Below are positions 13,381-37,246 of a stretch of DNA of 64,000 bases, piece by piece (the stretch's first letter is position 1; every line of letters starts with the position of its first letter). The position numbers and the translations under genes are program-made. The notes under the pieces were generated by a model, which worked only from the letters and a program-made list of their open reading frames with translations, was not told where the DNA came from and made no database searches. This stretch comes from a virus. Lineage: Duplodnaviria; Caudoviricetes. The stretch is taken from positions 128,001-192,000 of the IMG/VR virus record IMGVR_UViG_3300014204_000112; one strand, given 5' to 3'.

Positions 13381-15009
13381 TTAGATTACGATCTTACGTA
13401 CCTTGTCCAGGTGGTATGTAGGATTGAATTCGACGTTGGCGATGTCGTCGAACATCGAGAAGCCGTAACCGTAGTAGAAACGGACCTTGTCACCGATCAG
13501 CTGAGTTGTGCCGTAGGATGCCAAGTCTACAGAGTAGACGTATGGGTTTCCGACGTTCCTCAGGTAGTTCGTGTACGAAGAGTACGTGTTTCCACGGTTG
13601 CATTCGTTGTCAGAGAGGATGAACACCCTGTCGTACGCCTTTCCGGAACGTGCTGCCAGATCCCAAGCGGTGCTTAGGTTGGTTCCACCAAGGTTAGCAT
13701 TGAACGACCTTGCGATCGAGAATACGTCCTGGTTTGCGTTCCATGGGGTGAAGTGAGCGCTCGATCCGAACTGAATAACGTCAGCATTGGTTGCCTTCGC
13801 GATTGTTGCTCCGATCAAGGATGCCTTGTCAGCACATGACGTTGAGTACTGAGTCTTCCTGTTAGGGTCGACCATCTTCGTGGTCATGGATCCGGACCTG
13901 TCGATGATAACGAGGTTCCTTCCTGGCAATGCTTCCGCAAGGTTTGGAACGGATGCTTCGTAACCGATCAACAGTGCCTGTGCGATCTTCCTTCCGTCCA
14001 TCTTCGAGCCGAATTCTGCGAGCAGAATTTCGCCGGCCATGTCGATCTGGTAAGGCATGATCTTTGCCTGCCTGATAAGGTTTGGGTCCGACAGAACTGC
14101 GCACAGCTTGTCAATCGTTGCACGATCGGAGACCGTGTTCAGAATGCTCCTGATGTTACGCAGAGCTGCAAGAGTACCGAGCTTACCTTCGGTCAACAGA
14201 GCTCCCCAGTTTTCAGCCTTAGCTTCCTTGAGGATTTCTGCACCTTCAGCCTTGGTGATCTTACCTGCCTTTACGGCCTTTGCAACTTCCTGACCTGCGT
14301 CAGAGTTAGCAACTTCCCAGGTGTCGGCGGATACAGCCAAGCCCTTGATAACGGCATCGATTGCAGATACCCTTTCGCCCTTGAATTCAACGAATGCCCT
14401 CGACTGCTTTGGGTCAGGGTGAACGAGGTTGATAACGTCGATCAATGCTGACTTGTACTTCAGGATCGAGTATGCGTCGAGCCTTTCGATTGCATCAGCA
14501 AAACCCTTCTTCATAGAGTTGGTTGCCTTCGTCTTGTTCATAACCGAGAAACAGGCGATGATTTCGGCCATGTCGTCCGGACGGAAAATGGTTCCACCAG
14601 ACTGGTTCTTCTTGTTCCACAGTGAGTAGAACCTCTTCGCCCATTCGAGACCAGCGCAGTAAGGAGCGAGGTAGCTTGCTGCGAGGTGGTTGATCGACCT
14701 CATACCTTCACCAACGCAACGTGAGTACACGATGCACTGTGCGGTTAGGTAAGGATCTTCCTTTGCACAGGCAGTAACGATTCCCTTGAGTTCCCTCATG
14801 GTTTCATTTTCTGACCTGTAGAACTGGTTTTCCAGCTTCAAGGTGTTGAGCATTGTGATCAGTCTCAACCACTTGTCGATCGCATAAGCCGCGTGGCCCG
14901 AACGATTGACAGTGTTAGGCGTAGGAACTGCGTTAGCAGCTACTAACTTCGCCTTAGGTGCCGTCTTGGCAAGCTTAGTACGAAGATTTGCGTTTCTGAA
15001 CTTTGTCAT
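13381..15009 (-). CDS. TROVE/Ro60 (Rsr-like) RNA-binding protein with C-terminal vWA domain
   Basis: N-terminal NRSG..AY and FY motifs, ALRNI, IIDRSGSM MIDAS, GGTN, ILSDNE, VDLASYGT. Confidence 0.9.
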   Translation of the reverse strand: MTKFRNANLRTKLAKTAPKAKLVAANAVPTPNTVNRSGHAAYAIDKWLRLITMLNTLKLENQFYRSENETMRELKGIVTACAKEDPYLTAQCIVYSRCVGEGMRSINHLAASYLAPYCAGLEWAKRFYSLWNKKNQSGGTIFRPDDMAEIIACFSVMNKTKATNSMKKGFADAIERLDAYSILKYKSALIDVINLVHPDPKQSRAFVEFKGERVSAIDAVIKGLAVSADTWEVANSDAGQEVAKAVKAGKITKAEGAEILKEAKAENWGALLTEGKLGTLAALRNIRSILNTVSDRATIDKLCAVLSDPNLIRQAKIMPYQIDMAGEILLAEFGSKMDGRKIAQALLIGYEASVPNLAEALPGRNLVIIDRSGSMTTKMVDPNRKTQYSTSCADKASLIGATIAKATNADVIQFGSSAHFTPWNANQDVFSIARSFNANLGGTNLSTAWDLAARSGKAYDRVFILSDNECNRGNTYSSYTNYLRNVGNPYVYSVDLASYGTTQLIGDKVRFYYGYGFSMFDDIANVEFNPTYHLDKVRKIVI

Positions 15010-21143: not shown

Positions 21144-21150
21144 GAATTTT

Positions 21151-21233: not shown

Positions 21234-21238
21234 CTTCG

Positions 21239-22121: not shown

Positions 22122-22280
22122 ATGTTCCTTGAATAACTTTGGTCAACCACTCGCTACCCACCATTTTGTTAAAGTACGCATTGGTTATACCGCCCTGTTC
22201 AGATTTTACTGCATGAGGACTCCCAAGTTCACGTACTATTAACTCCGTGCCAAAGCCTTGTCCGTTGTAAGTCATTCGTG

Positions 22281-22353
22281 TGGAGAAAGACGGATTCGAA
22301 CCGCCGACGCAAAGATCTTCAGTCTTTCGCTCTACCATCTGAGCTATATCTCC
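22281..22353 (-). tRNA. tRNA-Phe (GAA)
   Basis: ctGAAga. Confidence 0.9.
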
Positions 22354-22504
22354 AGGTTATTAGGAAGCGACCTCGATTTTCTCGATTCGACTCGAGCTGA
22401 TGCATTGCTTGACCACAGCTCCGCACATTCACGGTCAAATGAATGCGGCTTATAGGTCCGAGGCGTAAGCGCCAACTACCTTCTACCGACTTCCTAATTT
22501 CGTT

Positions 22505-22582
22505 TGGTGCTCCCTACAGGATTCGAACCTATGACATCTTGCTTGTAAGGCAAGCGCTCTGAACCGACTGAGCTAAGAGAGC
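22505..22582 (-). tRNA. tRNA-Val (TAC)
   Basis: ctTACaa, CCA. Confidence 0.9.
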
Positions 22583-22591
22583 AAGTTAGTG

Positions 22592-22665
22592 TGATCGTAG
22601 CGGGAGTTGAACCTGCGACCTTTACCATGTCAAGGTAACACTCTAACCAACTGAGCTATACGATC
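22592..22665 (-). tRNA. tRNA-Val (GAC)
   Basis: ttGACat. Confidence 0.9.
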
Positions 22666-23293
22666 ATTTTCGACCAGCGTGCCAACCGTTTTGCAAGTAT
22701 TGTTCTAGCTGATCACTTTTTATTTTTTTAGTACTACAATCGTTAGATACCCATACTGTTCCAAATTGAGAATTGTTTGAACCTTTCTGTTTAATAGAAT
22801 TCATTGATCCGATTTTATCTTTAGTTTCAGCAGTATGATTTTTTCCTACAAAAGTATCGTACTTAATTTTTCCTTTAGTGTGAGACTTTTGCAATCTAAC
22901 TGAACTTCGTTTGCTTTGGTCTTCTCTGTATTCTGGATCTTTCCACTTTTTCAACAACCAATCAGTTGCTCCTTTGTGCAATTTTATTTCATGATCAGAA
23001 TTACATAATCCTCCACCTCCACCTGGTTGTAAATTCATGCACATCTTGTCATTCAGGAGATCTTCGTTTATTAGTTGATATTCTCTATTCTTTAATGCTT
23101 CTCTGTTCTCCAGGAACTCCAGAATCTCTTTGGTGTGATTTTGTTTGCCGTATTTATGAATAGAATACCTCAATCTTCTACCGCTTCCCATATACCCATC
23201 ATTTAAGTTCGAAGTCGAATGCATTCCGATGTAGTATCTACCGGTTACATTACATGTGATCTTGTAAATGTAGTGAATTTGTTTTTTTGGCAT
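22664..23293 (-). CDS. GIY-YIG (Seg-like) endonuclease
   Basis: YIYKITC..TGRYYIGMH, YMGSG. Confidence 0.85.
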   Translation of the reverse strand: MPKKQIHYIYKITCNVTGRYYIGMHSTSNLNDGYMGSGRRLRYSIHKYGKQNHTKEILEFLENREALKNREYQLINEDLLNDKMCMNLQPGGGGGLCNSDHEIKLHKGATDWLLKKWKDPEYREDQSKRSSVRLQKSHTKGKIKYDTFVGKNHTAETKDKIGSMNSIKQKGSNNSQFGTVWVSNDCSTKKIKSDQLEQYLQNGWHAGRK

Positions 23294-23349
23294 TTTTGTA
23301 CTGAGCTTTTTGTTATTTATATGAGCTCAAGTACAAAAATGACCAGAGG

Positions 23350-23424
23350 TACCGCATAGGGGATTCGAACCCCTGAATCTCCAGGATGAAAACCTGACGT
23401 CCTAACCAGCTAGACGAATGCGGC
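23350..23424 (-). tRNA. tRNA-Glu (TTC)
   Basis: ttTTCat. Confidence 0.9.
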
Positions 23425-23429
23425 ATGTT

Positions 23430-23543
23430 TGGAGGTAAGCGCTAGATTCGAACTAGCCACACAGCAGATTGCTCTGCCTCATTATCCGAAGGACTTCGAC
23501 CCTATGCATCAAATCGAAGCTCTTAATTCTGTGATAGCTTACC
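23430..23543 (-). ncRNA. tRNA-like RNA with perfect acceptor stem, T arm and CCA but an expanded core
   Basis: GGTAAGC/GCTTACC-T-CCA; GCTAGTTCGAATCTAGC; internal CTTCGA/TCGAAG helix. Confidence 0.6.
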
Positions 23544-23556
23544 GTGTGTCTTCCAG

Positions 23557-23630
23557 TACTCCGGGGTGGGATTGAACCACCGACCTTGATCTTATAAGAA
23601 TCCTGCTACTAACCGCTGAGCTACCGGAGC
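23557..23630 (-). tRNA. tRNA-Ile (TAT)
   Basis: ctTATaa. Confidence 0.8.
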
Positions 23631-23639
23631 AAATAAGTT

Positions 23640-23710
23640 GGAGAGAAAATCGGTAGAGTTGTTTGTTGTAAAACCAAAATTTACGAAGTAACTCTTTCCT
23701 TTACTACTCC
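23640..23710 (-). ncRNA. Y-RNA-like RNA 4, minimal (no tRNA module)
   Basis: TAGTAA-N5-AGAGTTACTTCG ... CTCT..TTCT, closed by GGAG/CTCC. Confidence 0.7.
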
Positions 23711-23713
23711 TAG

Positions 23714-23788
23714 TGGATACATGTGGGCTTCGAACCCACGACCTCCTGATTGCAAAACAGGCGCTCTTGCCATCTGAGCTAATGACCC
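23714..23788 (-). tRNA. tRNA-Ala (TGC), irregular acceptor stem
   Basis: ttTGCaa. Confidence 0.8.
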
Positions 23789-24417
23789 AAATTTCTACCT
23801 TTTATCCAACCAGTTGGAATCAGTTCGTTTTTTTGTATTTTCTTATTTACTGTTCCATTAGTAATCCACTGAGTTCCGTATTGCGAATTATTAGAACCCA
23901 GTTGACTGGTTGAATTCTTTAATCCTATTACTTTTTTTGTTTTATCAGTATGCTGCTTTCCTAAAAAATTATCAGTTTTTATTTTACCAGTTTCCCATGC
24001 ATGCTTCATATTTGCACTAGAAATATTATGATACTTTTTTCTAAAGGATTCATCGATTTGCATACGATTCGAAAAAGCAGTATTTCCAGCAGTCCCACAT
24101 TTTTTCATGTGATTAACATTACAAAATCCGCCGCTTCCGCCAGGTTTCAAATTCATACACAGTGGATCATCTAGTAACTCAATATTTACGAGTTGAGTTT
24201 CTCTATTGATCAAAGATTCTTTAGTCTCTAGGAACTCCAGAATCTCCTTAGTGTGATTCTCTCTGCCATGCTTAAGAACTGAATATCTTAATTGTTTGCC
24301 GCTTCCGAAATATCCATCTTCTAAATTTGAAGCTGAATGCATTCCGATGTAATATCTACCAGTTACATTGCATGTGATCTTGTAAATGTAAAAGATTGAT
24401 TTAGGTTTTCTTGGCAT
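23779..24417 (-). CDS. GIY-YIG (Seg-like) endonuclease
   Basis: Paralog of 22664-23293 and 15052-15612. Confidence 0.85.
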   Translation of the reverse strand: MPRKPKSIFYIYKITCNVTGRYYIGMHSASNLEDGYFGSGKQLRYSVLKHGRENHTKEILEFLETKESLINRETQLVNIELLDDPLCMNLKPGGSGGFCNVNHMKKCGTAGNTAFSNRMQIDESFRKKYHNISSANMKHAWETGKIKTDNFLGKQHTDKTKKVIGLKNSTSQLGSNNSQYGTQWITNGTVNKKIQKNELIPTGWIKGRNLGH

Positions 24418-24473
24418 CTGCCGTACATTATTTTAGATTATTTATCTAAGACAAGGTACAAAAAATGCCGGGG

Positions 24474-24547
24474 TGGAGATTACGAGATTCGAACTCGTGA
24501 CATCCTGCTTGCAGGGCAGGCGCTCTGGCCATCTGAGCTAAATCCCC
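24474..24547 (-). tRNA. tRNA-Ala (TGC)
   Basis: ctGCAag region read as ccTGCaa; G3:U70. Confidence 0.9.
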
Positions 24548-24550
24548 ATA

Positions 24551-24658
24551 AGTAGAGAAAGTCGGAAGAGATAACAGGCGGTTTCGACACCGCGACTTTT
24601 GTTTAAGAGACAAATACTGGACTCCCAGCTCGAAGTAACTCTTTCCATTACTACTACT
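24551..24658 (-). ncRNA. Y-RNA-like RNA 5 with a Lys(CTT)-like anticodon arm and a T-like arm
   Basis: TAGTAA-N5-AGAGTTACTTCG ... CTCT..TTCT; TTTGT ctCTTaa ACAAA. Confidence 0.72.
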
Positions 24659-24661
24659 TTG

Positions 24662-24737
24662 TAGGGTAGGTGGGCTATGACCCCACGTGCTCTTAATCCC
24701 AAATCAAGCGAGATAAACCAGACTCCTCTACTACCCT
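24662..24737 (-). tRNA. tRNA-Pro (TGG)
   Basis: ttTGGga; variant T loop. Confidence 0.8.
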
Positions 24738-25381
24738 GTGATGTTATTTTTTAAGAATGTTTTTATTTGAGATTCCATAAGTTTGAAATTTCGGTGTTTC
24801 CATTGTATTCTTACAATTTTCCAACCTTCCTTTTTTATTATGTTATCTCGATTTACATCATATTCTTTTCTTTCCTCATGTTGTTTTCCATCTATTTCTA
24901 AAATTACTTTTTTATCAATGAATGCAAAATCAGCAAAAAATCTATTTACTTTATGATCTCTTATGTATTTTATTTGTTCTTTATTAAGAAGATCTATTGT
25001 AAATTGTTCAGCCCAAGACGGTTTCTTATTTAATCGTGAAGGATAACCATTATGTCTACCTTCTTTTGCTAATTGTTTTTGTGTATATGAAGAAGAACAA
25101 TTCCGCGAACAGAATTTATTAGTATTTGTTATTAACACTTCTTTTTCTTTTCCGCATACTAAACACGACATTATTTTTCTATCAATTAAATGAAGACCTT
25201 TTCTATTAGTTGACGTTCCTTTCAAAAATGATGGTTTTCCTAATAACGATTTACTAACCTTTTCGTTAATTTCTTTCCGTTTTTCTTTTGTACTAAATCC
25301 TCTAGAACATTTAGAAGAACAAAATCTGCCACTTCCATATTGACCATCATGTGGATTACCACAATTTTCGCAAAGTTTCAT
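24731..25381 (-). CDS. Vsr/DUF559-like endonuclease with Zn ribbons
   Basis: FFADFA, LEIDGKQH, DVNRD; N-terminus shared with 17549-18229. Confidence 0.8.
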   Translation of the reverse strand: MKLCENCGNPHDGQYGSGRFCSSKCSRGFSTKEKRKEINEKVSKSLLGKPSFLKGTSTNRKGLHLIDRKIMSCLVCGKEKEVLITNTNKFCSRNCSSSYTQKQLAKEGRHNGYPSRLNKKPSWAEQFTIDLLNKEQIKYIRDHKVNRFFADFAFIDKKVILEIDGKQHEERKEYDVNRDNIIKKEGWKIVRIQWKHRNFKLMESQIKTFLKNNITG

Positions 25382-25433
25382 AAGTTCGTTTATTGTTATT
25401 TATATTCGAACCTATCCACTTTTTTGATCCCGG

Positions 25434-25507
25434 TAGGCAGGGGTGGACTTGAACCACCGGCCTCTTCCTTATCAGAGAAGCGCTCTAACCAACTGAGCTA
25501 CATGCCC
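25434..25507 (-). tRNA. tRNA-Ile (GAT)
   Basis: ctGATaa. Confidence 0.9.
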
Positions 25508-25637
25508 GTATATGAAGCAACGATTTTCCATGTCAGTAGGACGTTGCCAACCTATCCAGCTTACGATCTGGCTCGCCGTTTGACCTTGCGGTCAGGGAAA
25601 GCGAGGAACTACGACCCGGTGGCCTGCCGGTACATCG

Positions 25638-25846
25638 AGCCTTTAGACGGATTCGAACCGCCGACTCCTCAACTACACCGTATGGTCTTGATTCGTGTAC
25701 ACTCCTCTTGATTTTCAGGTTCGTCTACCTCGAATCTCCTGGTTATCCATTCAAGTTGTCTTACGTACGACGCATTGAACCTTTCGCCAAAATTTCCAAG
25801 GTCCGGTCCTAATCCGGACGCTCTAAGCCGCTGAGCTAAGGGGATA
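25638..25846 (-). ncRNA. chimeric tRNA-like element with a ~130-nt structured insert
   Basis: 5' D and anticodon arms (atTAGga), 3' T arm; acceptor strands pair poorly. Confidence 0.4.
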
Positions 25847-25848
25847 TT

Positions 25849-26442
25849 TTATTTGTTAAAATTTATTTCGATGAATCTTTTTGTTTGAGTATTAGAAATG
25901 TTCCAACTTTTTGATAATTTCGTAATCCAACCGAATTTCTTTTCTATTGAATCATACTCATTTTTTCTTCTATTAAATTCGTCAGTTTTCATTTTTCCAG
26001 CTTCGCTTATCAATCTTTTAGATTCAGAAGTATGTCGTTTTCCTTTGAACGATGCAGCACCCAATCTTTTTCTTTTTGATAATGGAATTGGCCAACCCTT
26101 GTGTTTTCCTTCAATAACGTTTTTCTTTATTGATTCTCTTCTCTCTGGTCTGCTCCAAGCGTATTCCCAACCACCTTCTCCTCCAAGCTTGAGATTGTAA
26201 GTATCTTCTCTGTTAATAAAGAATTCATTTACTAGTTCTTTTTCTTTTTCTAGAGCTTCATTTTTCGTTGGAAAAACGTAAAGAATTTCTTTTCTGAAAT
26301 TTTGAATCCCATATTTTTTAATTGCCGCTTTTAACAATTTTCCAGAACCAAAATACTCGTCATTCAAATTTTTAGTTGAATGATAACCGATGTAAATTTT
26401 AGAATTTAAGCAATTTGTTATTTTGTAAATAGCGTAATACAT
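25849..26442 (-). CDS. GIY-YIG (Seg-like) endonuclease
   Basis: AIYKITN..NSKIYIGYH, YFGSG. Confidence 0.85.
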   Translation of the reverse strand: MYYAIYKITNCLNSKIYIGYHSTKNLNDEYFGSGKLLKAAIKKYGIQNFRKEILYVFPTKNEALEKEKELVNEFFINREDTYNLKLGGEGGWEYAWSRPERRESIKKNVIEGKHKGWPIPLSKRKRLGAASFKGKRHTSESKRLISEAGKMKTDEFNRRKNEYDSIEKKFGWITKLSKSWNISNTQTKRFIEINFNK

Positions 26443-26487
26443 TAACCGTAGTTTTGATTTTATTTATATGAATCTGCGGTTAATTTG

Positions 26488-26560
26488 AGCTTCCTGTAGG
26501 CTACGACCCCACGACCCTCTGAGTACAAATCAGATGCTCTACCAACTGAGCTAAGGAAGC
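26488..26560 (-). tRNA. tRNA-Thr (TGT)
   Basis: ttTGTac. Confidence 0.88.
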
Positions 26561-26570
26561 ATTTTTTGAG

Positions 26571-26643
26571 AGCCTCATACCCGATTCAAACGGGTGACCT
26601 ACTGAGTACGAATCAGTTGCTCTATCTGCTGAGCTAAAGAGGC
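26571..26643 (-). tRNA. tRNA-Thr (CGT)
   Basis: ttCGTac. Confidence 0.88.
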
Positions 26644-26644
26644 A

Positions 26645-27079
26645 TTATAAATCTTTGGCTGTTACGAATTCCTGTGAACTGATTCGGTTAGGACCTCCAT
26701 CGACGAAGTACGTAAGATTATTTCCAGTTCGTATTGCCCATAGTATCAACCAATTAAGAACAGCTGAATCCATTTTAGAAACTGCTTCTATAGCTTGATA
26801 ATGTTCAATCTTGCCAGTTTTCTTCGTCACTAGAACGTTGGACAAGCTCGGTTTCATCCACATTGGAAAGTCATCATTCGTTAACCATTCGCACTTGTAA
26901 GTTATGCAAGGATCGATCGGTCTATTCTCGTAAATCGTGCAACCTTTTCCGATTTCTACAAAGTGACAAGGTTTTCCTCGATAGAATCTTTCTCCATGAG
27001 CTACTCCGTGTAACCAACCTTCACAACATTTCGTGCAATCTCCACAAGTTCTTTTTGGAACATTAACAGTTTTTTCCAT
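26645..27079 (-). CDS. Cys-cluster (CxxCxxCC, YkgJ-like) protein
   Basis: CGDCTKCC...C...CTIYENRP..PC. Confidence 0.7.
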   Translation of the reverse strand: MEKTVNVPKRTCGDCTKCCEGWLHGVAHGERFYRGKPCHFVEIGKGCTIYENRPIDPCITYKCEWLTNDDFPMWMKPSLSNVLVTKKTGKIEHYQAIEAVSKMDSAVLNWLILWAIRTGNNLTYFVDGGPNRISSQEFVTAKDL

Positions 27080-27126
27080 TCTAGTAGTTTTACTTATTAT
27101 ACAGAAGGACCGTAACAAGTTTTATT

Positions 27127-27202
27127 TGGCACCCGCGGAAGGACTTGAACCCTCAACCCTCGGTTTTGGAGACCGGTACTCTACCAATTGAGCTACACGG
27201 AT
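27127..27202 (-). tRNA. tRNA-Trp (CCA)
   Basis: ctCCAaa, CCA end. Confidence 0.9.
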
Positions 27203-27207
27203 AAGTT

Positions 27208-27316
27208 TGATTTGAGAATGGTAAAAAGAGTTTTTTACTAAGCAAGGTTTGGTGCTTGGTGTTGGATTCGAACCAACGATAACCATCGATGTATCTCTTT
27301 TTTTTGCTACAAATCA
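27208..27316 (-). ncRNA. Y-RNA-like RNA 6 with a T arm and one further hairpin
   Basis: TAGCAA-N5-AGAGATACATCG ... CTCT..TTCT; GTTGGTTCGAATCCAAC. Confidence 0.7.
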
Positions 27317-27317
27317 G

Positions 27318-27394
27318 CGGGCCCAAACGGATTCGAACCGTCCTGAATCTTCTGAGTGACAGTCAGACAGCCACACCTAGCAGCCCCTGAGCCC
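27318..27394 (-). tRNA. tRNA-Asp (GTC)
   Basis: ctGTCac. Confidence 0.88.
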
Positions 27395-27922
27395 ATGTTC
27401 TTTTTCTTCAATATTCTGTAGTTTCCAAACTTCAAACTGAATATTTTGTTCAGATAATGCTTTCCATTTACACTTATCGATTTCAGTTTCAAATCCTTTA
27501 ACTTCAATGTAATAGGTAGATCCATTAATATTGATGACTTTGAAATCCAATAGATAATTATGAACTTCGTTATCTGGACCTATGTATTGTATTCGGTCAT
27601 TTGTGTATTCCCAATCTCTTATTAAGTAGTTGGCCTTCCAATTATCAAGAATTTTACAAACTCGTAATTCAAAGGATCCCTGTACCTTGATTGATTTATA
27701 TTGATACCATTTAGAAGTTCCACCAGCTACATAATTATGACCTAACCTATAAGCTTGTTTATGAACTTCTGACCAATTTACTTTATTATGGTTTGACCAA
27801 CTTCCTCGTAATTTACTAGAACAGCTAACTGAGCAACATTTTTGATTTCTTTTATTCCAGTGAACTGAGAATTTAGTCAAACAATATTTACAAATTAACT
27901 GCACATCTTCGTGTTTTGTCAT
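27377..27922 (-). CDS. PD-(D/E)xK (TnsA-N-like) endonuclease
   Basis: QGSFELR, YLLDFKV, YIEVKG; paralog of 17549-18229. Confidence 0.8.
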   Translation of the reverse strand: MTKHEDVQLICKYCLTKFSVHWNKRNQKCCSVSCSSKLRGSWSNHNKVNWSEVHKQAYRLGHNYVAGGTSKWYQYKSIKVQGSFELRVCKILDNWKANYLIRDWEYTNDRIQYIGPDNEVHNYLLDFKVININGSTYYIEVKGFETEIDKCKWKALSEQNIQFEVWKLQNIEEKEHGLRGC

Positions 27923-27968
27923 GGCACTTTATTTATACGCGCCTCGTCTTTCGCCGTGAAGTTAAATG

Positions 27969-28044
27969 TGGTAGGCTCGAAGGGACTTGAACCCTTGACT
28001 CCCGCCTTAAAAGGGCGGTACTCTACCAACTGAGTTACGAACCC
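27969..28044 (-). tRNA. tRNA-Lys (TTT)
   Basis: ctTTTaa, CCA. Confidence 0.9.
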
Positions 28045-28460
28045 GTAATCGCTTCTCGAATCTTTTGTTTATGTTCATCCGATTTAGCTTTACCCCTATT
28101 TCCTTTACCACCGTTTGACGAACGTTTTCTCAAAAGTTCTTTAGCTTTAACTTTGCCATGTTTATCAATCATTCGTTGATAGATTGATGGCGCTCCATTT
28201 TCGTATTCGTCAATTTTATTATCTGACTTAGTCCCCCAATACATGTGATTAGGATTACTACATTTTGGATTGTTACAGCCGTGGCAAACAACGATGCTAT
28301 TTCCATTGACTGGCATTGTCGTATCGTAGTGGTATGCAACCAGAGCAACTAACTGAGTAGAGTATTTCAATCCACGTTCGTGGCAAGGTTCCTCTAACTT
28401 TAGCATTTGTTTTCTTTGTGCTCTAGTGTTTTCGATTACAAAATTTTCAACTGATTTCAT
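28035..28460 (-). CDS. HNH/His-Cys-type endonuclease
   Basis: VCHGCNNPKCSNPNHMYWGT..DN. Confidence 0.8.
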   Translation of the reverse strand: MKSVENFVIENTRAQRKQMLKLEEPCHERGLKYSTQLVALVAYHYDTTMPVNGNSIVVCHGCNNPKCSNPNHMYWGTKSDNKIDEYENGAPSIYQRMIDKHGKVKAKELLRKRSSNGGKGNRGKAKSDEHKQKIREAITGS

Positions 28461-28541
28461 GTTTTAGTTTATATATCTAGAGCAATCTCTTAAAAGTACA
28501 GCACTCTAGCGATAATTGGTCTTTGTTCAATAAATAACGGC

Positions 28542-28739
28542 ATGGTTAATGAACGTTATTTTATGTGCTCCAAGTGCGGAACAGTCGTCGACTCGTTCGG
28601 CAAAGCAGTGGATGCAAAGAAACTAGAAATAGACATAAAATCTTTAAGAAGTACCACTTGTAAGATTTGTCTTGACTATCAAATCTGGGAAAACAATACT
28701 TACTTTTCGAGGACTGATCGGGACTCGAACCCGAGATAA
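28542..28739 (+). CDS. small Zn-ribbon protein antisense to the tRNA array
   Basis: CSKC...CKIC; ATAAATA late-promoter-like motif just upstream on the + strand. Confidence 0.5.
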   Translation: MVNERYFMCSKCGTVVDSFGKAVDAKKLEIDIKSLRSTTCKICLDYQIWENNTYFSRTDRDSNPR

Positions 28740-28779
28740 CCAACTGGATGGGGCGCGCACCAACCACCACGTTCAGCCC
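28710..28779 (-). pseudogene. degenerate tRNA (anticodon arm poorly paired; TCC or CCA)
   Basis: GGGCTGA/TCAGTCC acceptor and TCGGGTTCGAGTCCCGA T arm intact. Confidence 0.5.
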
Positions 28780-28790
28780 ATAAATACAAA

Positions 28791-28925
28791 CAAGAACACT
28801 GGATAGAGGAATTTGATTGATGTCAATTTTACAGATTGATGACTTAGACCGCTCGTCCAACGACCCGAAAGCCGTACGGGATTCGAACCCGTGATCGAAG
28901 TAACTCTATGACCTTACTATGCTTG
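28791..28925 (-). ncRNA. Y-RNA-like RNA 7, permuted at the variable loop (T arm, looped acceptor, D arm, GTA anticodon arm)
   Basis: TAGTAA-N6-AGAGTTACTTCG ... CTCT..TTCT. Confidence 0.78.
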
Positions 28926-29373
28926 ATTTCTTATTTACAATGTTTTTTGCTCCGAACGTATGTGTTTGTGAATGACAGTTTGGACACAAAATTCTCAGAT
29001 TTTGAAGTCTGTGATTTCGGTTATTTCCGTCAATATGATCGACTTGTAATGATAAAGGTAGACCGTTCCATTCTGCTGGAGTTCCGCATTCTTCACATCG
29101 ATCCTCTTTATAACCTTCCAGTATCAATCGTCTTTTTAATTTCGATGTCGGATATTCTGGGTGTTTTCCTTCAAGAATGTCTAGCAATTTGAATGCTACT
29201 CCTCCGGTTCTTTTCATTTTTCGTAACTTGACTTCAATTTGTATTCCTAACAAATTGCAATATTTGGTTAGGGTTACTCTACTGATTCCAGTTACTTCTG
29301 AAAGTTCCAAAACAGAGCTAACGTTCTTGGCATTTTCATTGATTTTGTCTACGATTTCTTGGTTTAGCCGCAT
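28906..29373 (-). CDS. HNH endonuclease
   Basis: CEECG, LQVDHIDGN..NHRLQNLRILCPNCH; start moved to MRLNQ. Confidence 0.9.
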   Translation of the reverse strand: MRLNQEIVDKINENAKNVSSVLELSEVTGISRVTLTKYCNLLGIQIEVKLRKMKRTGGVAFKLLDILEGKHPEYPTSKLKRRLILEGYKEDRCEECGTPAEWNGLPLSLQVDHIDGNNRNHRLQNLRILCPNCHSQTHTFGAKNIVNKKSSIVRS

Positions 29374-29426
29374 TGCTTTATTTTTATTTATATGCGGTCT
29401 GTTTACCAAAACCTCTGTAAACTACG

Positions 29427-29508
29427 TGGGATGTGATGGAGTCGAACCACCCGAGCTTTCACAACAGATTTACAGTCTGCCCCGCTACCATCTACGGAAT
29501 AACATCCC
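29427..29508 (-). tRNA. tRNA-Tyr (GTA)
   Basis: ctGTAaa, variable arm. Confidence 0.9.
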
Positions 29509-29549
29509 ATTGTCCCTCTATTTTTGATTTCCTGGAGGGTGCGGAAGGT

Positions 29550-29669
29550 GCGGGAAGGTGAGATTCGAACTCACGAGATCAAATTGACAGTTTGATTGTT
29601 TCCGATGCAACTCTTATCATTGCTATCCTTTCAGAAGAAATTCGACAGAGCGTTTTGAATTTCTTCCCC
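29550..29669 (-). ncRNA. tRNA/Y-RNA chimera A (D arm replaced by the Y-like stem; GTC loop)
   Basis: GGGAAG/CTTCCC acceptor, CTCT..TTCT-loop-TAGCAA-N5-AGAGTTGCATCG, ctGTCaa, T arm. Confidence 0.75.
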
Positions 29670-29708
29670 GAGTGTACCTGTTTTTACTGTACAGGAGAAC
29701 AGTGTAGG

Positions 29709-29826
29709 AGGGGGAAGTTGGATTTGAACCAACGATCAAATTTTCAAGGTTTGATTGTGCCGATGAAACTCTTATCATTGCTATCATCGCTGAAGAAAGT
29801 CGACAGAGTCGTTTTTACTTTCCCCC
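29709..29826 (-). ncRNA. tRNA/Y-RNA chimera B
   Basis: GGGGGAA/TTCCCCC acceptor, same internal module, T arm GTTGGTTCAAATCCAAC. Confidence 0.75.
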
Positions 29827-29842
29827 ATGTTTTATTAAGTAT

Positions 29843-29967
29843 TGGCGAGGGAGGCTGGATTTGAACCAACATAATCAAGTTTTCAATTTGACTGTTACCG
29901 ATGCAACTCTATTCATTGCTATCATTGCTGAAGAAAGTCGGATAGAGCATTGTGTATATGCTCCCTC
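29843..29967 (-). ncRNA. tRNA/Y-RNA chimera C with encoded CCA (GAA loop)
   Basis: GAGGGAG/CTCCCTC-G-CCA, same internal module. Confidence 0.78.
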
Positions 29968-29975
29968 ATGTATTT

Positions 29976-30764
29976 TTATAGGTTCCAAGATTTTCCTTTG
30001 TACTCCCGATTCACTCTTCGGTATGAAGAGATGATCCCTTGTGAATGAAGATCGTAACCGTTGAGTATTCTTATATTCATTGGAAATTGGTCCCATTTTG
30101 CGAAATCTTTATCTGTAGGATATCCTTTAATTTCGATGTAAACATTATCCTCTAAAAGATAAAAATCTGGCGTGTAATACCTTTTTTTTCCATCAAAGAA
30201 GTATTCGAATTTTTCAGTAGGTCTTCGCCACTTGATCGAATTTGCATCCAACCATTTAGCATATTCAACTTCCCATATTCCTTGAAATTTTTTTCCAGCA
30301 TATTCATGAGTTCTAGACTTAGAAAAGGATAAATGCCAATTATCATTTTTAACGTTTTCTTTTATTGTATTAGCAATAGTATTTCGATGATCTATTGATA
30401 AATGTTTTCCTTTAAAAAAAGGTATGAATGCACCGGATTTAAGGTTAGTATTAAAAGTATCTGACCCTTTTTTAACTCTAGCATCGGTTTCTTTGGTTAA
30501 TCCGTGATTCCATGAAGGTTTACCACCAAGATTATTATTTTTCCAATTAATTCCATCTTCATGATTTCTCCAAATGTGAGAAATGATTCCTAATTTAGAA
30601 TAAACTTTACCACAGTATGGGCATTTATAAGTTCCATCATTTTGTAAATAATTAATGCTCTTTAATCTAATTTTCTTAGTTCCACAAGATTTTTCATGTT
30701 TAGATATATTACTTAAACTTATCTTAATGCCGCATTTTTTACAGTTAGTAGTGTGTCGGTTCAT
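29976..30764 (-). CDS. PD-(D/E)xK endonuclease with Zn fingers
   Basis: CPYCGK, GIWE, YTPDFYL, YIEIKG. Confidence 0.8.
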   Translation of the reverse strand: MNRHTTNCKKCGIKISLSNISKHEKSCGTKKIRLKSINYLQNDGTYKCPYCGKVYSKLGIISHIWRNHEDGINWKNNNLGGKPSWNHGLTKETDARVKKGSDTFNTNLKSGAFIPFFKGKHLSIDHRNTIANTIKENVKNDNWHLSFSKSRTHEYAGKKFQGIWEVEYAKWLDANSIKWRRPTEKFEYFFDGKKRYYTPDFYLLEDNVYIEIKGYPTDKDFAKWDQFPMNIRILNGYDLHSQGIISSYRRVNREYKGKSWNL

Positions 30765-34219: not shown

Positions 34220-34441
34220 TTATTCGTGTTCGTACTTCGGGCATTCCCATACAGGAAGCGTCATGTTATTATCCACGCAGAACTAGTAATTAGCCTGAGC
34301 GAGTGGACAATTTTCTGGAGTATTCGGTTTGAAGAACTTGCACTCAAGGTGGCACAGGCAATGTTCCCTGTGCCGACCCTTGAGGTGTTCCTGGACGTTT
34401 ACCACAGTTCCGTGGTGTTCGTACTGGATTACTGTTGCCAT
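34220..34441 (-). CDS. Cys/His-rich small protein with an in-frame TAG at codon 53
   Basis: MATVIQYEHHG...HREHCLCHLEC...NCPLAQANY*FCVDNNMTLPVWECPKYEHE; TAATG-coupled to the NAMPT-like gene. Confidence 0.6.
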
Positions 34442-36024
34442 TATTTCTGGTATTTTTCTTTCTTAAGGTGTTCCTCAATCGTTGCTCTGATTGCGGCTAA
34501 CGTTGTCCTGCGAACGATGACTCCATCGACGAATACTGGCTGCAACATTCCTGTCGCTTCTTCTTCCCAGGTAACTCCGTCGGTGTAGGTCATGTCTTTG
34601 TTCACTCTGACGAGACCGCGAGCTGATTTCTTCATTCCGCTGTCGGTGATGGGATCCTTAAAGATTTCCTTCTGGCGACCATCTACAGTTTCGGCGAATG
34701 TAGCTTTCATCGCCATCATGTAAGTGTCCCTAGTGACGTACTGGTAGGTGTAGGAACCGATTCCGAGGACCAGATTGGAAGCACAGAATCCCTTTTCTTC
34801 GAGCCGTGCAAGAATGTCCCTCTGTCTCTGCATCGTAATGGAATCGCCGTAGATCAGGCCGATGTGAGTGTCAAGCTGTTTGTAACCTTTTTCTGTCGTA
34901 GGACCAGGAAACATGGTGTACAGGTATTCGTAAGCTCCGAGGAATTCAGCATCAGTCATTTCCTCAGCAATCTTATCGTCTGATTTGAAGAAGTACTTCG
35001 GCTGGTCTTCGCTGTAGTCAATCACGATTTCGTTGACCCTGTAGCCAGAAACGATGTGAACTGGTTCTCCTGAGTCGGGACGAATTACGAGACGACCGTT
35101 ACGGGCGAGGATTTCTGTTTTGAGGCCGGGGATCAGGACCTTCAGAACTTTCCAGAAGTTCCAGGTGTCGGAAACCACGGAGATCGGGCCATCCGGATAG
35201 ATCTTCGTGATCAGCCGTTTGAAAGTATTGTAGTCCGAGTCAACACATTCGTCGCGGGTAAGACCCTCTGATGCGACCATGTGGATCATGTGCTCGGTTG
35301 CCGGGATGCTACCGCCAATGAGTTCAGTATTGCTATCAGCCCCGTAGTAATCTTCGAGGAAGTCGATTGCAAGAATGGTGTCGGTGCCGGTGAAACTTAG
35401 AAGGTGTGCTGCTCCGGAAAGAGCTGCATCTTCTGGGCCTGACATTCCACGGAACGAAAAGTCGTGTCCCTGCCATTTCACGAAGTCCATCGGACCGTCA
35501 GTGAGACGCATGTGGCGTTCGAATTCTTTCCTGTAATGGAACGCGGTCGTTGCACTGGTGCAAGGTTTCCACAGAACGCAGCTGAGCAGCGATTCCAGGT
35601 AATTGGTCAACCATGCGAAACGTTTGTCACCGTGCTTGGTGTTGCGAATGGTGAGCATTGGGGTACGCATTGGAACGAGAGTTCCTTCAGGTACGGCCTT
35701 AATCACAAGCGGCAAGTAGCCAAGATCATGGAGAGCTTCAATGTGAGCTACTGGAACCGTTCCAGGTCCGAGTGAGCTATCCATTCTTCTCTGGTACTTA
35801 CGTACGACCTTCGCCTTCGGTTTGAAGAAGAATTCGTCGTTCCAGTTACGGACAAGAAATTCCTGAAGGAAGTACTGGAGGCCGAAGAACACGATCTCAT
35901 CAGCCCATGGAACCCTGGTTCCGCGAGGAGTGAATGTCGAATAAATGACGACCGTGTCTTCCGGTATCATCATTGGGTGTCCGACTTTGTAGAAGTCGGC
36001 CGCGTGCAATGGGAAAATTTTCAT
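34441..36024 (-). CDS. nicotinamide phosphoribosyltransferase-like protein (Namat/NadV family)
   Basis: DFYKVGH, HDFSFRG, PATEH, SVVSDT, IRPDSG, IYGDSIT, KKSARG. Confidence 0.9.
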   Translation of the reverse strand: MKIFPLHAADFYKVGHPMMIPEDTVVIYSTFTPRGTRVPWADEIVFFGLQYFLQEFLVRNWNDEFFFKPKAKVVRKYQRRMDSSLGPGTVPVAHIEALHDLGYLPLVIKAVPEGTLVPMRTPMLTIRNTKHGDKRFAWLTNYLESLLSCVLWKPCTSATTAFHYRKEFERHMRLTDGPMDFVKWQGHDFSFRGMSGPEDAALSGAAHLLSFTGTDTILAIDFLEDYYGADSNTELIGGSIPATEHMIHMVASEGLTRDECVDSDYNTFKRLITKIYPDGPISVVSDTWNFWKVLKVLIPGLKTEILARNGRLVIRPDSGEPVHIVSGYRVNEIVIDYSEDQPKYFFKSDDKIAEEMTDAEFLGAYEYLYTMFPGPTTEKGYKQLDTHIGLIYGDSITMQRQRDILARLEEKGFCASNLVLGIGSYTYQYVTRDTYMMAMKATFAETVDGRQKEIFKDPITDSGMKKSARGLVRVNKDMTYTDGVTWEEEATGMLQPVFVDGVIVRRTTLAAIRATIEEHLKKEKYQK

Positions 36025-36256
36025 GGTGTATGTTGTTAAGAGTTAAACATTCGGTGAAAAGGACTCGAGCAAGCCGACAATCGCTGCAGAGCAGATGAAT
36101 ATGATTCCGAGCTTGAGAATTAAGGAATCGGCATGCTTTCCGAACAGTCGATTCTGACCTTCGGTCAATACCGACTGTACTGCGGCTGCGATCCTGAGAA
36201 ATGCCATACAACAGGCTAATCCAAAAAATATTGCAGATAACATCATAGTGAAAGAT

Positions 36257-37183
36257 TTATATGGTTTTTTTCGTTTTGAGTCCGTAACGTTCGTTGTATT
36301 CGAGCTCGACATTGATCTGGTATATCAATGGATCGTCGATTTTCTTTAACAGGTCGGTGCAGAAAATTCCGGCGAAATACTTTCCGAGTTCTTCGAATCC
36401 GTTAGAAAATATACCAAAGGTGACTGCTAAGTAGATCTTTCCGCAGTTACGTTTTTTGAGTTCCTTGGCGATCTCAATGAATGTTCTTCCTCCGTCGCAA
36501 ATGTCATCGATGATGAGGATGTCATTTCCATGAAGGTCTTCCTTATTCACAGTGGTCTGAATAATTTTGCCGGTAGATAATTCCCGAACCTTATCGCAGA
36601 GGATGATGTCGTCATTGTAGCCAATCTCCTTTGCTATGGTGAATATCTTCTTATAGGCTCCGGCATCTGGTGAAACCAGGTTGATCTTTGGCTCTTCTGC
36701 TGTTCTCATTGATTGCAGAGCATCGAACACCTCCTTGACGAACGAGTAGTTCTTTATTACACAGCAGTTGTCAATGAGGGCAGGGCCGACATCGGAATGC
36801 GGGTCGAACACGAAAACTCGTCCGAACTTCTGTGAATTGATCAAGCCGACGAATGCTTTGACTGAGAGAGGTTCCCCCTCAACGCAGACCCGGTCCTGAC
36901 GAGCGAACGGAATGAATGAAAGGAAGAGCCAGAGCTTCGATTCCTTTTTTAACTCGCGAACTGCGTTCGCAGCAAGAAAAATTCGGATGAGGTCATTCCC
37001 ATTTTGCGGTCTTCCAGTAATCAGGGTAACCGTATCATCATCGAAATCGAAAGTTTCCGGGTCTAACTTTACATGAGGTTCGATACCGGAATAGAAATCG
37101 AGAGAAGCGAAGTCGATATTGTACTGAGAGTACACTGGAGCGAAGTCCTTATCGAGATTTAGGGTTTGAATTTTGCTGATCAT
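36257..37183 (-). CDS. PRPP-synthetase-like protein (Adps-like partner)
   Basis: PFARQDR, DPHS, VSPDAGA, IIDDICDGGRTF; adjacent to the NAMPT-like gene. Confidence 0.85.
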   Translation of the reverse strand: MISKIQTLNLDKDFAPVYSQYNIDFASLDFYSGIEPHVKLDPETFDFDDDTVTLITGRPQNGNDLIRIFLAANAVRELKKESKLWLFLSFIPFARQDRVCVEGEPLSVKAFVGLINSQKFGRVFVFDPHSDVGPALIDNCCVIKNYSFVKEVFDALQSMRTAEEPKINLVSPDAGAYKKIFTIAKEIGYNDDIILCDKVRELSTGKIIQTTVNKEDLHGNDILIIDDICDGGRTFIEIAKELKKRNCGKIYLAVTFGIFSNGFEELGKYFAGIFCTDLLKKIDDPLIYQINVELEYNERYGLKTKKTI

Positions 37184-37246
37184 AAGATTCGTTATAGGCG
37201 ATATTGTACTACATTTCGACCGTTTGTGTTTCGAATAAATAACGCT

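What the first reader, a model, noticed from the sequence alone, without database searches (positions are those of the whole stretch)
29550..29967. Three tandem 'inside-out' RNAs: true tRNA ends with the Y-like stem in place of the D arm
Seen: each ~120-nt copy has an acceptor stem with free ends (copy C ends CTCCCTC-G-CCA), an anticodon arm (GTC in A, a TTGAAAA loop in B and C) and a canonical T arm. In the D-arm position the two motif strands occur in reversed order (CTCT..TTCT first, then TAGCAA..AGAG) joined by a short loop, a circular permutation of the other seven elements. Acceptor sequences differ between copies while pairing is kept. Inference: these RNAs could be matured by tRNA-processing enzymes and perhaps aminoacylated while carrying Ro60, unlike YrlA, whose acceptor stem is closed by a loop.
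Basis: partly seen in the sequence, partly recalled or inferred. Interest (0 to 1): 0.85.

Follow-up and report, generated by a model that had tools for sequence, protein, structure and literature searches.

The report
tRNA-ended Ro60-handle RNAs in phage
A giant phage that encodes its own Ro60 protein carries three tandem ~122-base RNA genes that start and end like a tRNA but have, in place of the D arm, a loop-closed copy of the conserved helix that marks this phage group's Ro60-linked Y-like RNAs, a wiring I did not find in the papers I could search.

Summary
On the minus strand, at 29967-29843, 29826-29706 and 29669-29547, lie three copies of a structured RNA. I found 31 distinct members in related Ro60-encoding phage contigs.

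**Structure.** A covariance model scores the copies at 101-128 bits; the next hit in the genome scores 26.6. All helices covary:
- the 7-bp acceptor stem
- the handle hairpin, including a tip closed by a GNRA tetraloop
- the anticodon-like arm
- the T arm

**tRNA-like ends.** N-CCA is encoded in 16 of 31 members and C74 in 29 of 31, as in the phage's own tRNA genes.

**The handle.** The hairpin carries the same two strand motifs as seven other Y-like elements in the window, in reversed order. The motif is tightly linked to Ro60 genes: 85 same-strand hits in 424 kb of Ro60 flanks, against 2 in 1.07 Mb of control DNA.

**Interpretation.** These are most likely Ro60-partner tRNA mimics that are matured like tRNAs. 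They are not decoders: there is no D arm or U8, and the loops run from 6 to 9 nt. Ro60 binding, end processing and charging are all inferred, not shown.

**Precedent.** Cleaved M. smegmatis YrlA already shows a Y RNA with a CCA end. Earlier notes of this scan report loop-closed Ro60 handles on tRNA-shaped RNAs in other phages, there in the anticodon arm.

I class it as a new variant of a known kind.

The parts
29843..29967 (-). Copy C, whole RNA (125 nt incl. G-CCA tail)
   Evidence: R1 102.5 bits; segment map
29706..29826 (-). Copy B, whole RNA (121 nt, tail TCCT)
   Evidence: R1 101.4 bits
29547..29669 (-). Copy A, whole RNA (123 nt, tail CACC; terminal pair G.G)
   Evidence: R1 128.4 bits
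29961..29967 (-). Copy C acceptor 5' strand GAGGGAG, pairs with 29847-29853
   Evidence: Acceptor helix: 5 of 7 pairs change on both sides, 99% of cells paired
29907..29947 (-). Copy C handle hairpin: P1 CTCTAT/ATAGAG, P2, internal loop TTTCT/TAGCAA, P3 and GCAA tetraloop
29893..29906 (-). Copy C joiner TTGCATCGGTAACA (conserved; GG may stand in for the D loop)
   Evidence: Motif scan; GG co-occurs with a canonical T loop, 20:5:1:5
29874..29892 (-). Copy C anticodon-like arm, 5 bp with 9-nt loop ATTGAAAAC
29854..29870 (-). Copy C T arm GTTGG-TTCAAAT-CCAGC
   Evidence: T arm: 5 of 5 pairs covary, 100% paired
29843..29853 (-). Copy C acceptor 3' strand CTCCCTC, discriminator G, encoded CCA
29769..29808 (-). 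Copy B handle hairpin (GCGA tetraloop)
29736..29754 (-). Copy B anticodon-like arm, 9-nt loop CCTTGAAAA
29706..29733 (-). Copy B T arm, acceptor 3' strand TTCCCCC and tail TCCT
29611..29650 (-). Copy A handle hairpin (contains GTCGAA; GAAA tetraloop)
29578..29596 (-). Copy A anticodon-like arm, 7-nt loop CTGTCAA (GUC)
29547..29574 (-). Copy A T arm GTGAG-TTCGAAT-CTCAC, acceptor 3' strand CTTCCCG and tail CACC
13381..15009 (-). Phage Ro60-like gene (TROVE + vWA), 542 aa; presumed protein partner
   Evidence: Pfam TROVE, VWA_2 and vWA_Ro60; PF05731 over cut-off; best PDB match is Thermus phage phiLo Ro60, 9KOP/9L5Y, E 7.6e-9 over residues 38-520

Best explanation
The three genes encode members of a phage-specific family of Ro60-partner, Y-RNA-like tRNA mimics with an unusual wiring. 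The RNA ends form a tRNA-type acceptor/T-arm minihelix. The conserved Ro60-linked handle is an internal hairpin capped by a GNRA tetraloop, and it sits where the D arm would be. The handle consists of helix P1, helix P2, the internal loop UUUCU/UAGYAA, and the 3' joiner UUACUUCGG.

Shown here:
- the fold, from covariation in 31 homologues
- the identity of the handle with the seven other Y-like elements of the window, with strand order reversed
- tight genomic linkage of that handle to Ro60 genes
- tRNA-gene-like flanks

Inferred:
- The RNAs are cut out of the long tRNA-array transcript. Host RNase P would cut at G+1, and 3' trimming plus the host CCA-adding enzyme would finish the 3' end.
- The hairpin docks the phage Ro60.
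- The tRNA-like half presents Ro60 to, or competes for, proteins that recognise the top half of tRNA.

They probably do not decode.
For: Family and fold:
- R1 scores the three copies 101-128 bits. No other strong hit exists in the genome.
- There are 31 distinct homologues.
- Pairs changed on both sides: acceptor 5 of 7, P1/P2 6 of 8, P3 3 of 3, AC arm 6 of 6, T arm 5 of 5. No shuffle in 500 reaches this, and slid controls collapse.
- The P3 register was not part of the model the alignment was fitted to, so its covariation is independent support.

Handle:
- It is the same module as in the seven other elements, with strand order reversed.

Link to Ro60:
- The module has 85 hits, all on the Ro60 strand, in 424 kb of Ro60 flanks, against 2 in 1.07 Mb of control loci.
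- Family members lie 0.24-4.4 kb from Ro60 on the same strand. This holds even where Ro60 is only 37% identical: L184, L164, L030, L031.
- A phage Ro60 has been shown to bind Y-like RNAs encoded upstream of its gene (PMC12135203).

tRNA-like ends:
- The T arm abuts the acceptor 3' strand.
- N-CCA occurs in 16 of 31 members and C74 in 29 of 31. In the window's tRNAs the figures are 9 of 41 and 38 of 41.
- No promoter- or terminator-like motif lies around the copies on the minus strand; the nearest promoter-like site on that strand is about 365 nt downstream.
Against: - There is no transcript, end-mapping or binding datum.
- In this phage the copies lie 14.5 kb from Ro60, although within the same co-oriented RNA island.
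- The known Ro60 contact motif GNCGAA(N)G is only partly matched: GTCGAA in A, GTCGAC in B, TCCGAC in C. It also lies in a helix segment that covaries.
- The strictly conserved internal loop has no known counterpart in solved Ro60/Y RNA complexes.
- The Rfam YrlA model gives no hit on the copies.
- Copy A has a mismatched terminal pair.
- The genome record (83% complete) encodes no CCA-adding enzyme or RtcB, so maturation would depend on the host.
Confidence: 0.6

Rival explanations
1. They are working tRNAs, chargeable and used on the ribosome, whose D arm has been replaced by a Ro60-docking arm. Ro60 would then ride on aminoacylated tRNA.
For: - Free acceptor end with N-CCA.
- Copy A and its orthologues have a canonical 7-nt loop CUGUCAA. 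The orthologues L181a and L003b also have G73 and G2:C71, which are among the E. coli tRNA-Asp identity elements (my own knowledge).
- 14 of 31 members have YU-NNN-RN loops.
- At relaxed stringency ARAGORN calls a partial tRNA in 12 of 30 intact members, and a cloverleaf in 8 of 18 after in-silico removal of the hairpin.
Against: - There is no D stem, and position 8 is A rather than U.
- Loops of 6, 8 or 9 nt occur in half the family, including copies B and C.
- The 'anticodon' is not conserved between orthologues.
- Canonical tRNA-Asp, tRNA-Phe and tRNA-Tyr are already present in the window.
- The Rfam tRNA model scores 23.9 and 18 bits for copies A and C, below the cut-off of 29, and reports no match for copy B.
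- No G3.U70 pair exists that would allow anticodon-independent charging as in tmRNA.
Confidence: 0.1
2. The conserved hairpin is recognised by something other than Ro60, for instance another phage or host protein, or it serves only RNA folding or stability. The tRNA-ended RNA would then act independently of Ro60, for example as a decoy for host nucleases that target tRNA, or as a sponge for tRNA enzymes.
For: - The copies are 14.5 kb from Ro60 in this phage.
- The invariant internal loop is unlike the bulged helix that Ro60 contacts in Xenopus Y RNA.
- Many loops carry GUN-type triplets (GUC, GUA), as do tRNAs attacked by some anticodon nucleases (my own knowledge).
- The RNAs sit in a tRNA island riddled with homing endonucleases.
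Against: - The module clusters on both sides of Ro60 genes, on the same strand only, in 26 of 28 Ro60 loci, and is nearly absent from controls.
- Every larger contig where both can be checked keeps the RNA within a few kb of Ro60, even at 37% Ro60 identity.
Confidence: 0.17
3. The hairpin is an intervening sequence that is removed, leaving a small tRNA-like RNA.
For: After in-silico deletion of the hairpin, with part of the linker in at least copy A, ARAGORN at 80% stringency draws cloverleaves that start at G+1 for 8 of 18 members.
Against: - The hairpin and its joiner are the most conserved part of the RNA.
- The 'D stems' left after deletion are 2-4 weak pairs that do not covary.
- No splice-site-like feature or self-splicing fold is present in 40 nt.
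- The same module is terminal, not internal, in the seven other elements.
Confidence: 0.03
4. They are decaying tRNA duplicates or repeat debris with no function of their own.
For: - Copy A has a broken terminal pair.
- Some relatives have lost the T-loop consensus (L020, L179, L191, L176, L002a).
Against: Compensatory changes in every helix, across contigs whose Ro60 is only 37-99% identical, are not what decay produces.
Confidence: 0.03

Closest known systems
YrlA (Y RNA-like A, Rfam RF02553) of Salmonella and many bacteria and actinophages, bound by Rsr/Ro60 (Chen et al. 2014, PMC4201824; Wang et al. 2018, 10.1101/312249)
   Same: - Two modules: a protein-docking helix plus a tRNA-like body with a T arm.
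- Encoded on the Ro60 strand and, in relatives, within a few kb of the gene.
- Carries a CGA(A)-type motif in the helix.
   Different: - In YrlA the docking helix is formed by the RNA's own 5' and 3' ends and takes the place of the anticodon stem. The acceptor is closed by a loop, there is no free CCA end, and a D arm is present.
- Here the ends form the acceptor, the docking helix is a loop-closed internal hairpin, the D arm is missing, and an anticodon-like arm is present.
- The Rfam model gives no hit on the copies.
Mycobacterium smegmatis YrlA after processing (PMC4201824)
   Same: A Y RNA with a 7-bp acceptor stem that RNase P cuts and that acquires CCA in vivo. A Ro60-bound RNA with a tRNA-type 3' end therefore has precedent.
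   Different: There the ends arise by cutting a closed loop, which yields two base-paired fragments of a YrlA-wired RNA. Here a single continuous chain is encoded in tRNA order, and CCA is often templated.
Deinococcus radiodurans Yrn1
   Same: A Ro60-binding helix joined to a body with a T arm and an anticodon-like arm.
   Different: In Yrn1 the Ro60 helix occupies the acceptor position and is formed by the termini. There is no acceptor end.
Yrl1 and Yrl2 of Thermus phage phiLo with phage Ro60 (PMC12135203; PDB 9KOP, 9L5Y)
   Same: - Phage-encoded Ro60 with phage-encoded partner RNAs upstream of the gene.
- This Ro60 is the best solved-structure match of the window's Ro60.
   Different: As described, Yrl1 and Yrl2 have the classical stem-bulge-stem Y RNA shape with a terminal stem. 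No tRNA-type ends are reported.
tmRNA
   Same: A non-decoding RNA with a tRNA-type acceptor/T-arm top half, processed by RNase P and ending in CCA.
   Different: - tmRNA has G3.U70 for alanylation, a tag reading frame and pseudoknots, and binds SmpB.
- None of these is present here: pair 3:70 is G-C or C-G, and ARAGORN finds no tmRNA.
The seven other Y-like elements of this window (5' motif at 28919, 27309, 24653, 23706, 17543, 12652, 12247, minus strand)
   Same: The same handle: TAGYAA..AGAG plus TTACTTCG, paired with CTCT..TTCT.
   Different: In those seven the handle is closed by the RNA termini and encloses varied tRNA-like bodies. In the three copies the handle is capped by a tetraloop and the termini are the acceptor.

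Membership tests
tRNA (RF00005) | 7-bp acceptor stem with discriminator and CCA end | tested here: met
   The acceptor covaries and is 99% paired. N-CCA occurs in 16 of 31 members and C74 in 29 of 31. Copy A has a G.G terminal pair.
tRNA (RF00005) | T arm (5 bp plus GTTCRANYC loop) directly abutting the acceptor 3' strand | tested here: met
   All three copies have it, and 25 of 31 family members keep the loop consensus.
tRNA (RF00005) | D arm and core (U8, D stem, G18 G19 in a D loop) | tested here: not met
   Position 8 is A. An A-rich linker of 7-19 nt shows no conserved pairing. Only a GG in the joiner remains. No ARAGORN call. The Rfam tRNA model scores 23.9 and 18 bits for copies A and C, below 29, with no match for copy B.
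tRNA (RF00005) | 7-nt anticodon loop with U33 and purine 37 | tested here: inconclusive
   Copy A meets it (CUGUCAA). Copies B and C have 9-nt loops. 14 of 31 family members are canonical.
tRNA (RF00005) | Aminoacylation and decoding | not testable with these tools
   Needs biochemistry.
YrlA / bacterial Y RNA (RF02553) | Encoded near, and on the same strand as, a Ro60/TROVE gene | tested here: met
   The copies are on the same strand, 14.5 kb away in this phage. In relatives the distance is 0.24-4.4 kb. Module linkage to Ro60 is shown.
YrlA / bacterial Y RNA (RF02553) | Ro60-binding stem formed by pairing of the RNA's 5' and 3' ends | tested here: not met
   The handle is an internal hairpin closed by a GNRA tetraloop. 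The ends form the acceptor.
YrlA / bacterial Y RNA (RF02553) | GNCGAA(N)G or CGAA motif in the Ro60-contacting strand | tested here: inconclusive
   GTCGAA in A, GTCGAC in B, TCCGAC in C. CGA or CGG is present at that spot in most of the 31 rows. The strand's polarity relative to the tRNA-like body is opposite to that in canonical Y RNAs.
YrlA / bacterial Y RNA (RF02553) | Score at or above the Rfam gathering threshold (69 bits) | tested here: not met
   No YrlA match on the three copies even at E up to 10. Two of the other window elements reach 31.9 and 19.4 bits.
YrlA / bacterial Y RNA (RF02553) | Physical binding by Ro60 | not testable with these tools
   Needs pull-down or EMSA.
tmRNA | G3.U70 pair, tag reading frame, pseudoknots | tested here: not met
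   Pair 3:70 is G-C in 28 members and C-G in 3. The RNA is 122 nt long. ARAGORN finds no tmRNA.

The most novel reading that the evidence does not exclude
The free N-CCA end is functional. Either some copies are charged and carry Ro60 onto EF-Tu or the ribosome, or the tRNA-shaped half acts as bait that brings Ro60 to host enzymes or toxins that attack tRNA ends or anticodon loops. On the second reading, this phage's ten differently wired handle RNAs would form a Ro60-based surveillance or decoy set for its own 41-tRNA arsenal.
Probability: 0.12. Interest if true: 0.85.

Novelty: new variant of a known kind. Interest (0 to 1): 0.62.

Why it matters
[quoted passage not shown] This family breaks both rules.

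The same handle also occurs in the classical wiring in the same genome. That gives a natural experiment on what the tRNA-like half of Y RNAs is for, which has been open since 2014.

A tRNA-ended version makes concrete predictions that can be tested in E. coli with cloned parts:
- an RNase P cut at G+1
- CCA completion at the 3' end
- possible binding by a synthetase or EF-Tu
- Ro60 docking on an internal arm

It also adds to the picture of what giant phages carry in their tRNA islands.

Tried and rejected
1. **Rfam.** Scans at gathering and at E up to 10 gave no family for the copies, only partial tRNA hits for copies A and C.
2. **Phage GenBank collection.** BLASTN found no homologue. Relatives exist only in IMG/VR and metagenomes.
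3. **Loose DNA pattern.** A 15-base pattern returned mostly chance loci. I reused these as a negative control.
4. **Bacterial genomes.** The pattern scan found none.
5. **Single-sequence folds.** MFE folding recovers the acceptor, AC and T arms, but z-scores are weak (-0.8 to -2.3) and the handle is misfolded. The structure rests on covariation instead.
6. **First register for the distal helix.** My U.G/U-A pairs across TTCTT/GATAG showed no covariation. I replaced it with the register closing a GNRA loop, which covaries.
7. **Recent chimaeras with the phage's own tRNAs.** Rejected: only generic T-arm similarity was found.
8. **Coding potential.** Rejected: the ATG that often precedes G+1 opens no conserved frame, and indels between copies are not multiples of three.
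9. **Linker-joiner pairing.** A D stem formed between the A-rich linker and the joiner shows no conserved pairing.
10. **Enzymes in the phage record.** No RtcB or CCA-adding enzyme is encoded.
11. **Alternative arm assignment.** The handle could be read as the anticodon arm and the small hairpin as a variable arm, which would make the RNA an exact re-permutation of YrlA with the D arm lost. I cannot exclude this. I prefer the D-position reading because many of the small hairpins have 7-nt YU-NNN-RN loops.

Full report
**Setting**

The window is bases 128001-192000 of a 213.9-kb IMG/VR virus record. ARAGORN finds 41 tRNA genes, all on the minus strand.

A 542-aa gene at 13381-15009 (minus) matches TROVE, VWA_2 and the Ro60 vWA domain. 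Its best solved relative is the Ro60 of Thermus phage phiLo (9KOP/9L5Y, E 7.6e-9 over residues 38-520). The RNA island is interspersed with GIY-YIG, DUF559 and HNH endonuclease-like ORFs.

**The observation**

Read on the minus strand, the flagged stretch holds three copies of one design. Exact segments are given:
- a 7-nt acceptor 5' strand
- an 11-13-nt A-rich linker
- a 40-41-nt hairpin
- a conserved joiner, TTNCATCGG followed by a few bases
- a small anticodon-like arm
- 2-3 nt
- a T arm with GTTCRAATC that directly abuts the 7-nt acceptor 3' strand
- a 4-nt tail: GCCA in C, TCCT in B, CACC in A

The acceptor sequences differ while pairing is kept: GAGGGAG/CTCCCTC, GGGGGAA/TTCCCCC and GGGGAAG/CTTCCCG. 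Copy A has a G.G terminal mismatch. Its orthologue in the sister phage (Ro60 99% identical) has a perfect GGGGAAG/CTTCCCC.

Only copy A has a 7-nt loop (CTGTCAA). B and C have 9-nt loops built around TTGAAAA.

Standard detectors do not call these tRNAs. ARAGORN finds none. The Rfam tRNA model gives partial hits of 23.9 and 18 bits on copies A and C, below the 29-bit cut-off, and none on copy B. No YrlA hit appears.

**It is a real RNA family**

Pattern and similarity searches recovered homologues from related IMG/VR and metagenome contigs, but none from 185,579 bacterial and archaeal genomes or from GenBank phages.

A covariance model built from eight members scores 36 matches between 61 and 134 bits. 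Scores then drop to 46 and below, where ordinary tRNAs and other tRNA-like elements appear. In the window's own genome only the three copies score high: 128, 102 and 101 bits, against 26.6 for the next hit.

On the 31 distinct sequences, 94.4% of cells pair and 25 of 29 pairs show changes on both sides. None of 500 shuffles reaches this, and sliding the partners by 1-3 columns collapses pairing to 42-55%. Per helix:

| Helix | Pairs changed on both sides | Cells paired |
|---|---|---|
| Acceptor | 5 of 7 | 99% |
| Hairpin P1/P2 | 6 of 8 | 94.4% |
| Hairpin tip P3 | 3 of 3 | 97.8% |
| Small (AC-like) arm | 6 of 6 | 81% |
| T arm | 5 of 5 | 100% |

The lower pairing in the small arm reflects loop sizes of 6-9 nt, which disturb the alignment. 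Acceptor variants include GGCCGAG/CTCGGCC, GGCCAAG/CTTGGCC and GCCCAAG/CTTGGGC.

One caveat applies: the alignment was fitted to the model. The P3 register, however, was not in the model. My first register for that region showed no covariation, so the P3 result is independent.

The refined hairpin is P1 (CUCU/AGAG), a one-base bulge, P2 (GUCG/UGAU type), an invariant internal loop (UUUCU opposite UAGYAA), then U-A, C-G and a variable closing pair around a GNRA tetraloop.

**The hairpin is this phage group's Ro60-linked handle, with strand order reversed**

The motif TAGYAA-N5-6-ANNG-NTNCNTCG occurs ten times on the minus strand of the window and never on the plus strand. Chance expects 0.01.

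In the seven other elements the motif lies at the 5' side. A fixed pattern located its partner strand 25-90 nt downstream in four of them (for example CTCTTCCGACTTTCT, CTCTACCGATTTTCT). In the other three the pattern missed it, and the folds show diverged partners downstream. The two strands enclose varied tRNA-like bodies. Two of these elements get sub-threshold YrlA scores of 31.9 and 19.4 bits.

In the three copies a near-identical partner strand (CTCTGTCGACTTTCT, CTCTATCCGACTTTCT) lies about 35 nt upstream, and a tetraloop joins the two strands.

It is not an exact circular permutation of any one sibling, because the bodies differ. An alternative labelling also cannot be excluded: handle as anticodon arm, small hairpin as variable arm, D arm lost. 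That would make the RNA an exact re-permutation of YrlA.

**Link to Ro60**

Across 28 loci fetched around Ro60 homologues, a slightly relaxed form of the handle motif occurs 85 times in 424 kb. Every hit is on the Ro60 strand, and hits cluster on both sides of the gene. Control phage loci totalling 1.07 Mb gave 2 hits.

Members of the tRNA-ended family lie close to Ro60 on the same strand:
- 240 nt upstream in L020
- about 430-600 nt upstream in L030, L031 and L184
- 2.2-4.4 kb away in L164, L014 and L187

This includes phages whose Ro60 is only about 37% identical. It matches the criterion used to define bacterial and phage Y RNAs, namely same strand and within 4 kb (PMC4201824). A phage Ro60 has also been shown to bind Y-like RNAs encoded upstream of its gene (PMC12135203). 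In this window the copies are 14.5 kb from Ro60, but inside the same co-oriented RNA island.

**tRNA-type ends**

| Feature | tRNA-ended family | The window's 41 tRNAs |
|---|---|---|
| Encoded N-CCA | 16 of 31 | 9 of 41 |
| C at position 74 | 29 of 31 | 38 of 41 |
| Discriminator | A in 19, G in 9 | A in 21, G in 8 |
| Base at -1 | mostly T or C | T in 26, C in 13 |

No promoter-like or terminator-like site lies around the copies on the minus strand. The nearest sites on that strand are a promoter-like site at the head of the array, near 31632-31603, and one about 365 nt downstream, at 29183-29154.

The RNAs would therefore be cut from a polycistronic transcript. By established knowledge, a 7+5-bp acceptor/T minihelix suffices for RNase P and for the CCA-adding enzyme. 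M. smegmatis YrlA, which has a 7-bp acceptor, is cut by RNase P and receives CCA in vivo (PMC4201824). The phage record encodes no CCA-adding enzyme or RtcB.

**Why they are not ordinary tRNAs**
- There is no D stem.
- Position 8 is A rather than U.
- The linker varies from 7 to 19 nt without conserved pairing.
- The joiner supplies a GG that co-occurs with a canonical T loop (20 with both, 5 with neither, 6 discordant). This hints at a D-loop-like elbow contact, but the sequences are not phylogenetically independent.
- Loop triplets differ between close relatives: GUC, CAU, GCA, GUA, UGG. Half the family has 6-, 8- or 9-nt loops.
- Pair 3:70 is never G.U.
- The 3' halves are not recent copies of the phage's own tRNAs.
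- Relaxed ARAGORN draws cloverleaves only after the hairpin (and, in at least copy A, part of the linker) is deleted in silico, and their D stems are weak.

**Comparison with what is known**

[quoted passage not shown] This family departs from both while keeping the two-module logic.

It fails two defining features of YrlA: the terminal stem and the Rfam score. It fails one defining feature of tRNA: the D arm and core. I therefore file it as a new variant of the Y-RNA-like tRNA-mimic kind, not as a member of either family.

Earlier notes of this scan describe loop-closed Ro60 handles on tRNA-shaped RNAs in other huge phages, there inside the anticodon arm (e1-5339959, e1-5351947, e1-4043237). 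I did not test those. I found no such wiring in the papers I could search.

**Verdict**

Most likely (0.6) these are Ro60-partner tRNA mimics matured by the tRNA-processing machinery. Charging (about 0.1) and a non-Ro60 partner (about 0.17) remain open. No expression or binding data exist.

Noticed in passing
window minus strand, 5' motif at 28919, 27309, 24653, 23706, 17543, 12652, 12247: Seven further elements carry the same handle in the classical wiring, with the handle closed by the RNA ends. Their bodies differ: a T arm only (27309), an almost bare stem (23706), a YrlA-like T-acceptor-D order plus a CTGTAAA hairpin (28919), and what ARAGORN calls tRNA-Pro at 12152-12226 enclosed by the handle (12247).
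   Followed up: partly
window 29670-29705 (minus), between copies B and A: The spacer contains a small hairpin, CCTGT-ACAGTAAAA-ACAGG, preceded by ACACTGTTCT. The same spacer hairpin recurs with compensatory stem changes in L003, L002, L151 and L152 (CCTAT/ATAGG, CTCTC/GAGAG). It may be a processing signal.
   Followed up: partly
window 20710-20867 (minus): A sub-threshold match to archaeal RNase P RNA lies inside the tRNA array (29.3 bits, cut-off 84, E 3.8e-5). It could be a reduced phage RNase P-like RNA.
   Followed up: no
window 6513-6586 (minus): ARAGORN labels this tRNA 'Pyl'. It has a CTA anticodon, which makes it an amber suppressor-type tRNA.
   Followed up: no
window 15052-30764 (minus), ORFs between the RNA genes: At least nine ORFs of about 170-260 aa between the tRNAs match GIY-YIG/SegE, DUF559 (Vsr-like), HNH or NUMOD3 homing-endonuclease families. 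The ORF at 29976-30764 ends 8 nt before copy C.
   Followed up: partly
family alignment A7; positions -1 and 73: The base before G+1 often pairs with the discriminator: T-A in about 11 members, C-G in 4, T.G in about 4. The precursor can therefore extend the acceptor to 8 bp, which might shift or tune the RNase P cut.
   Followed up: no
window 23430-23543 (minus): This 114-nt element is the next-best hit of model R1 in the window (26.6 bits). It has an acceptor-like stem and a T arm but a different core.
   Followed up: no
window 34441-37252 (minus): NAMPT/NAPRTase-like and ribose-phosphate pyrophosphokinase-like genes lie here. They suggest a phage NAD-salvage pair.
   Followed up: no
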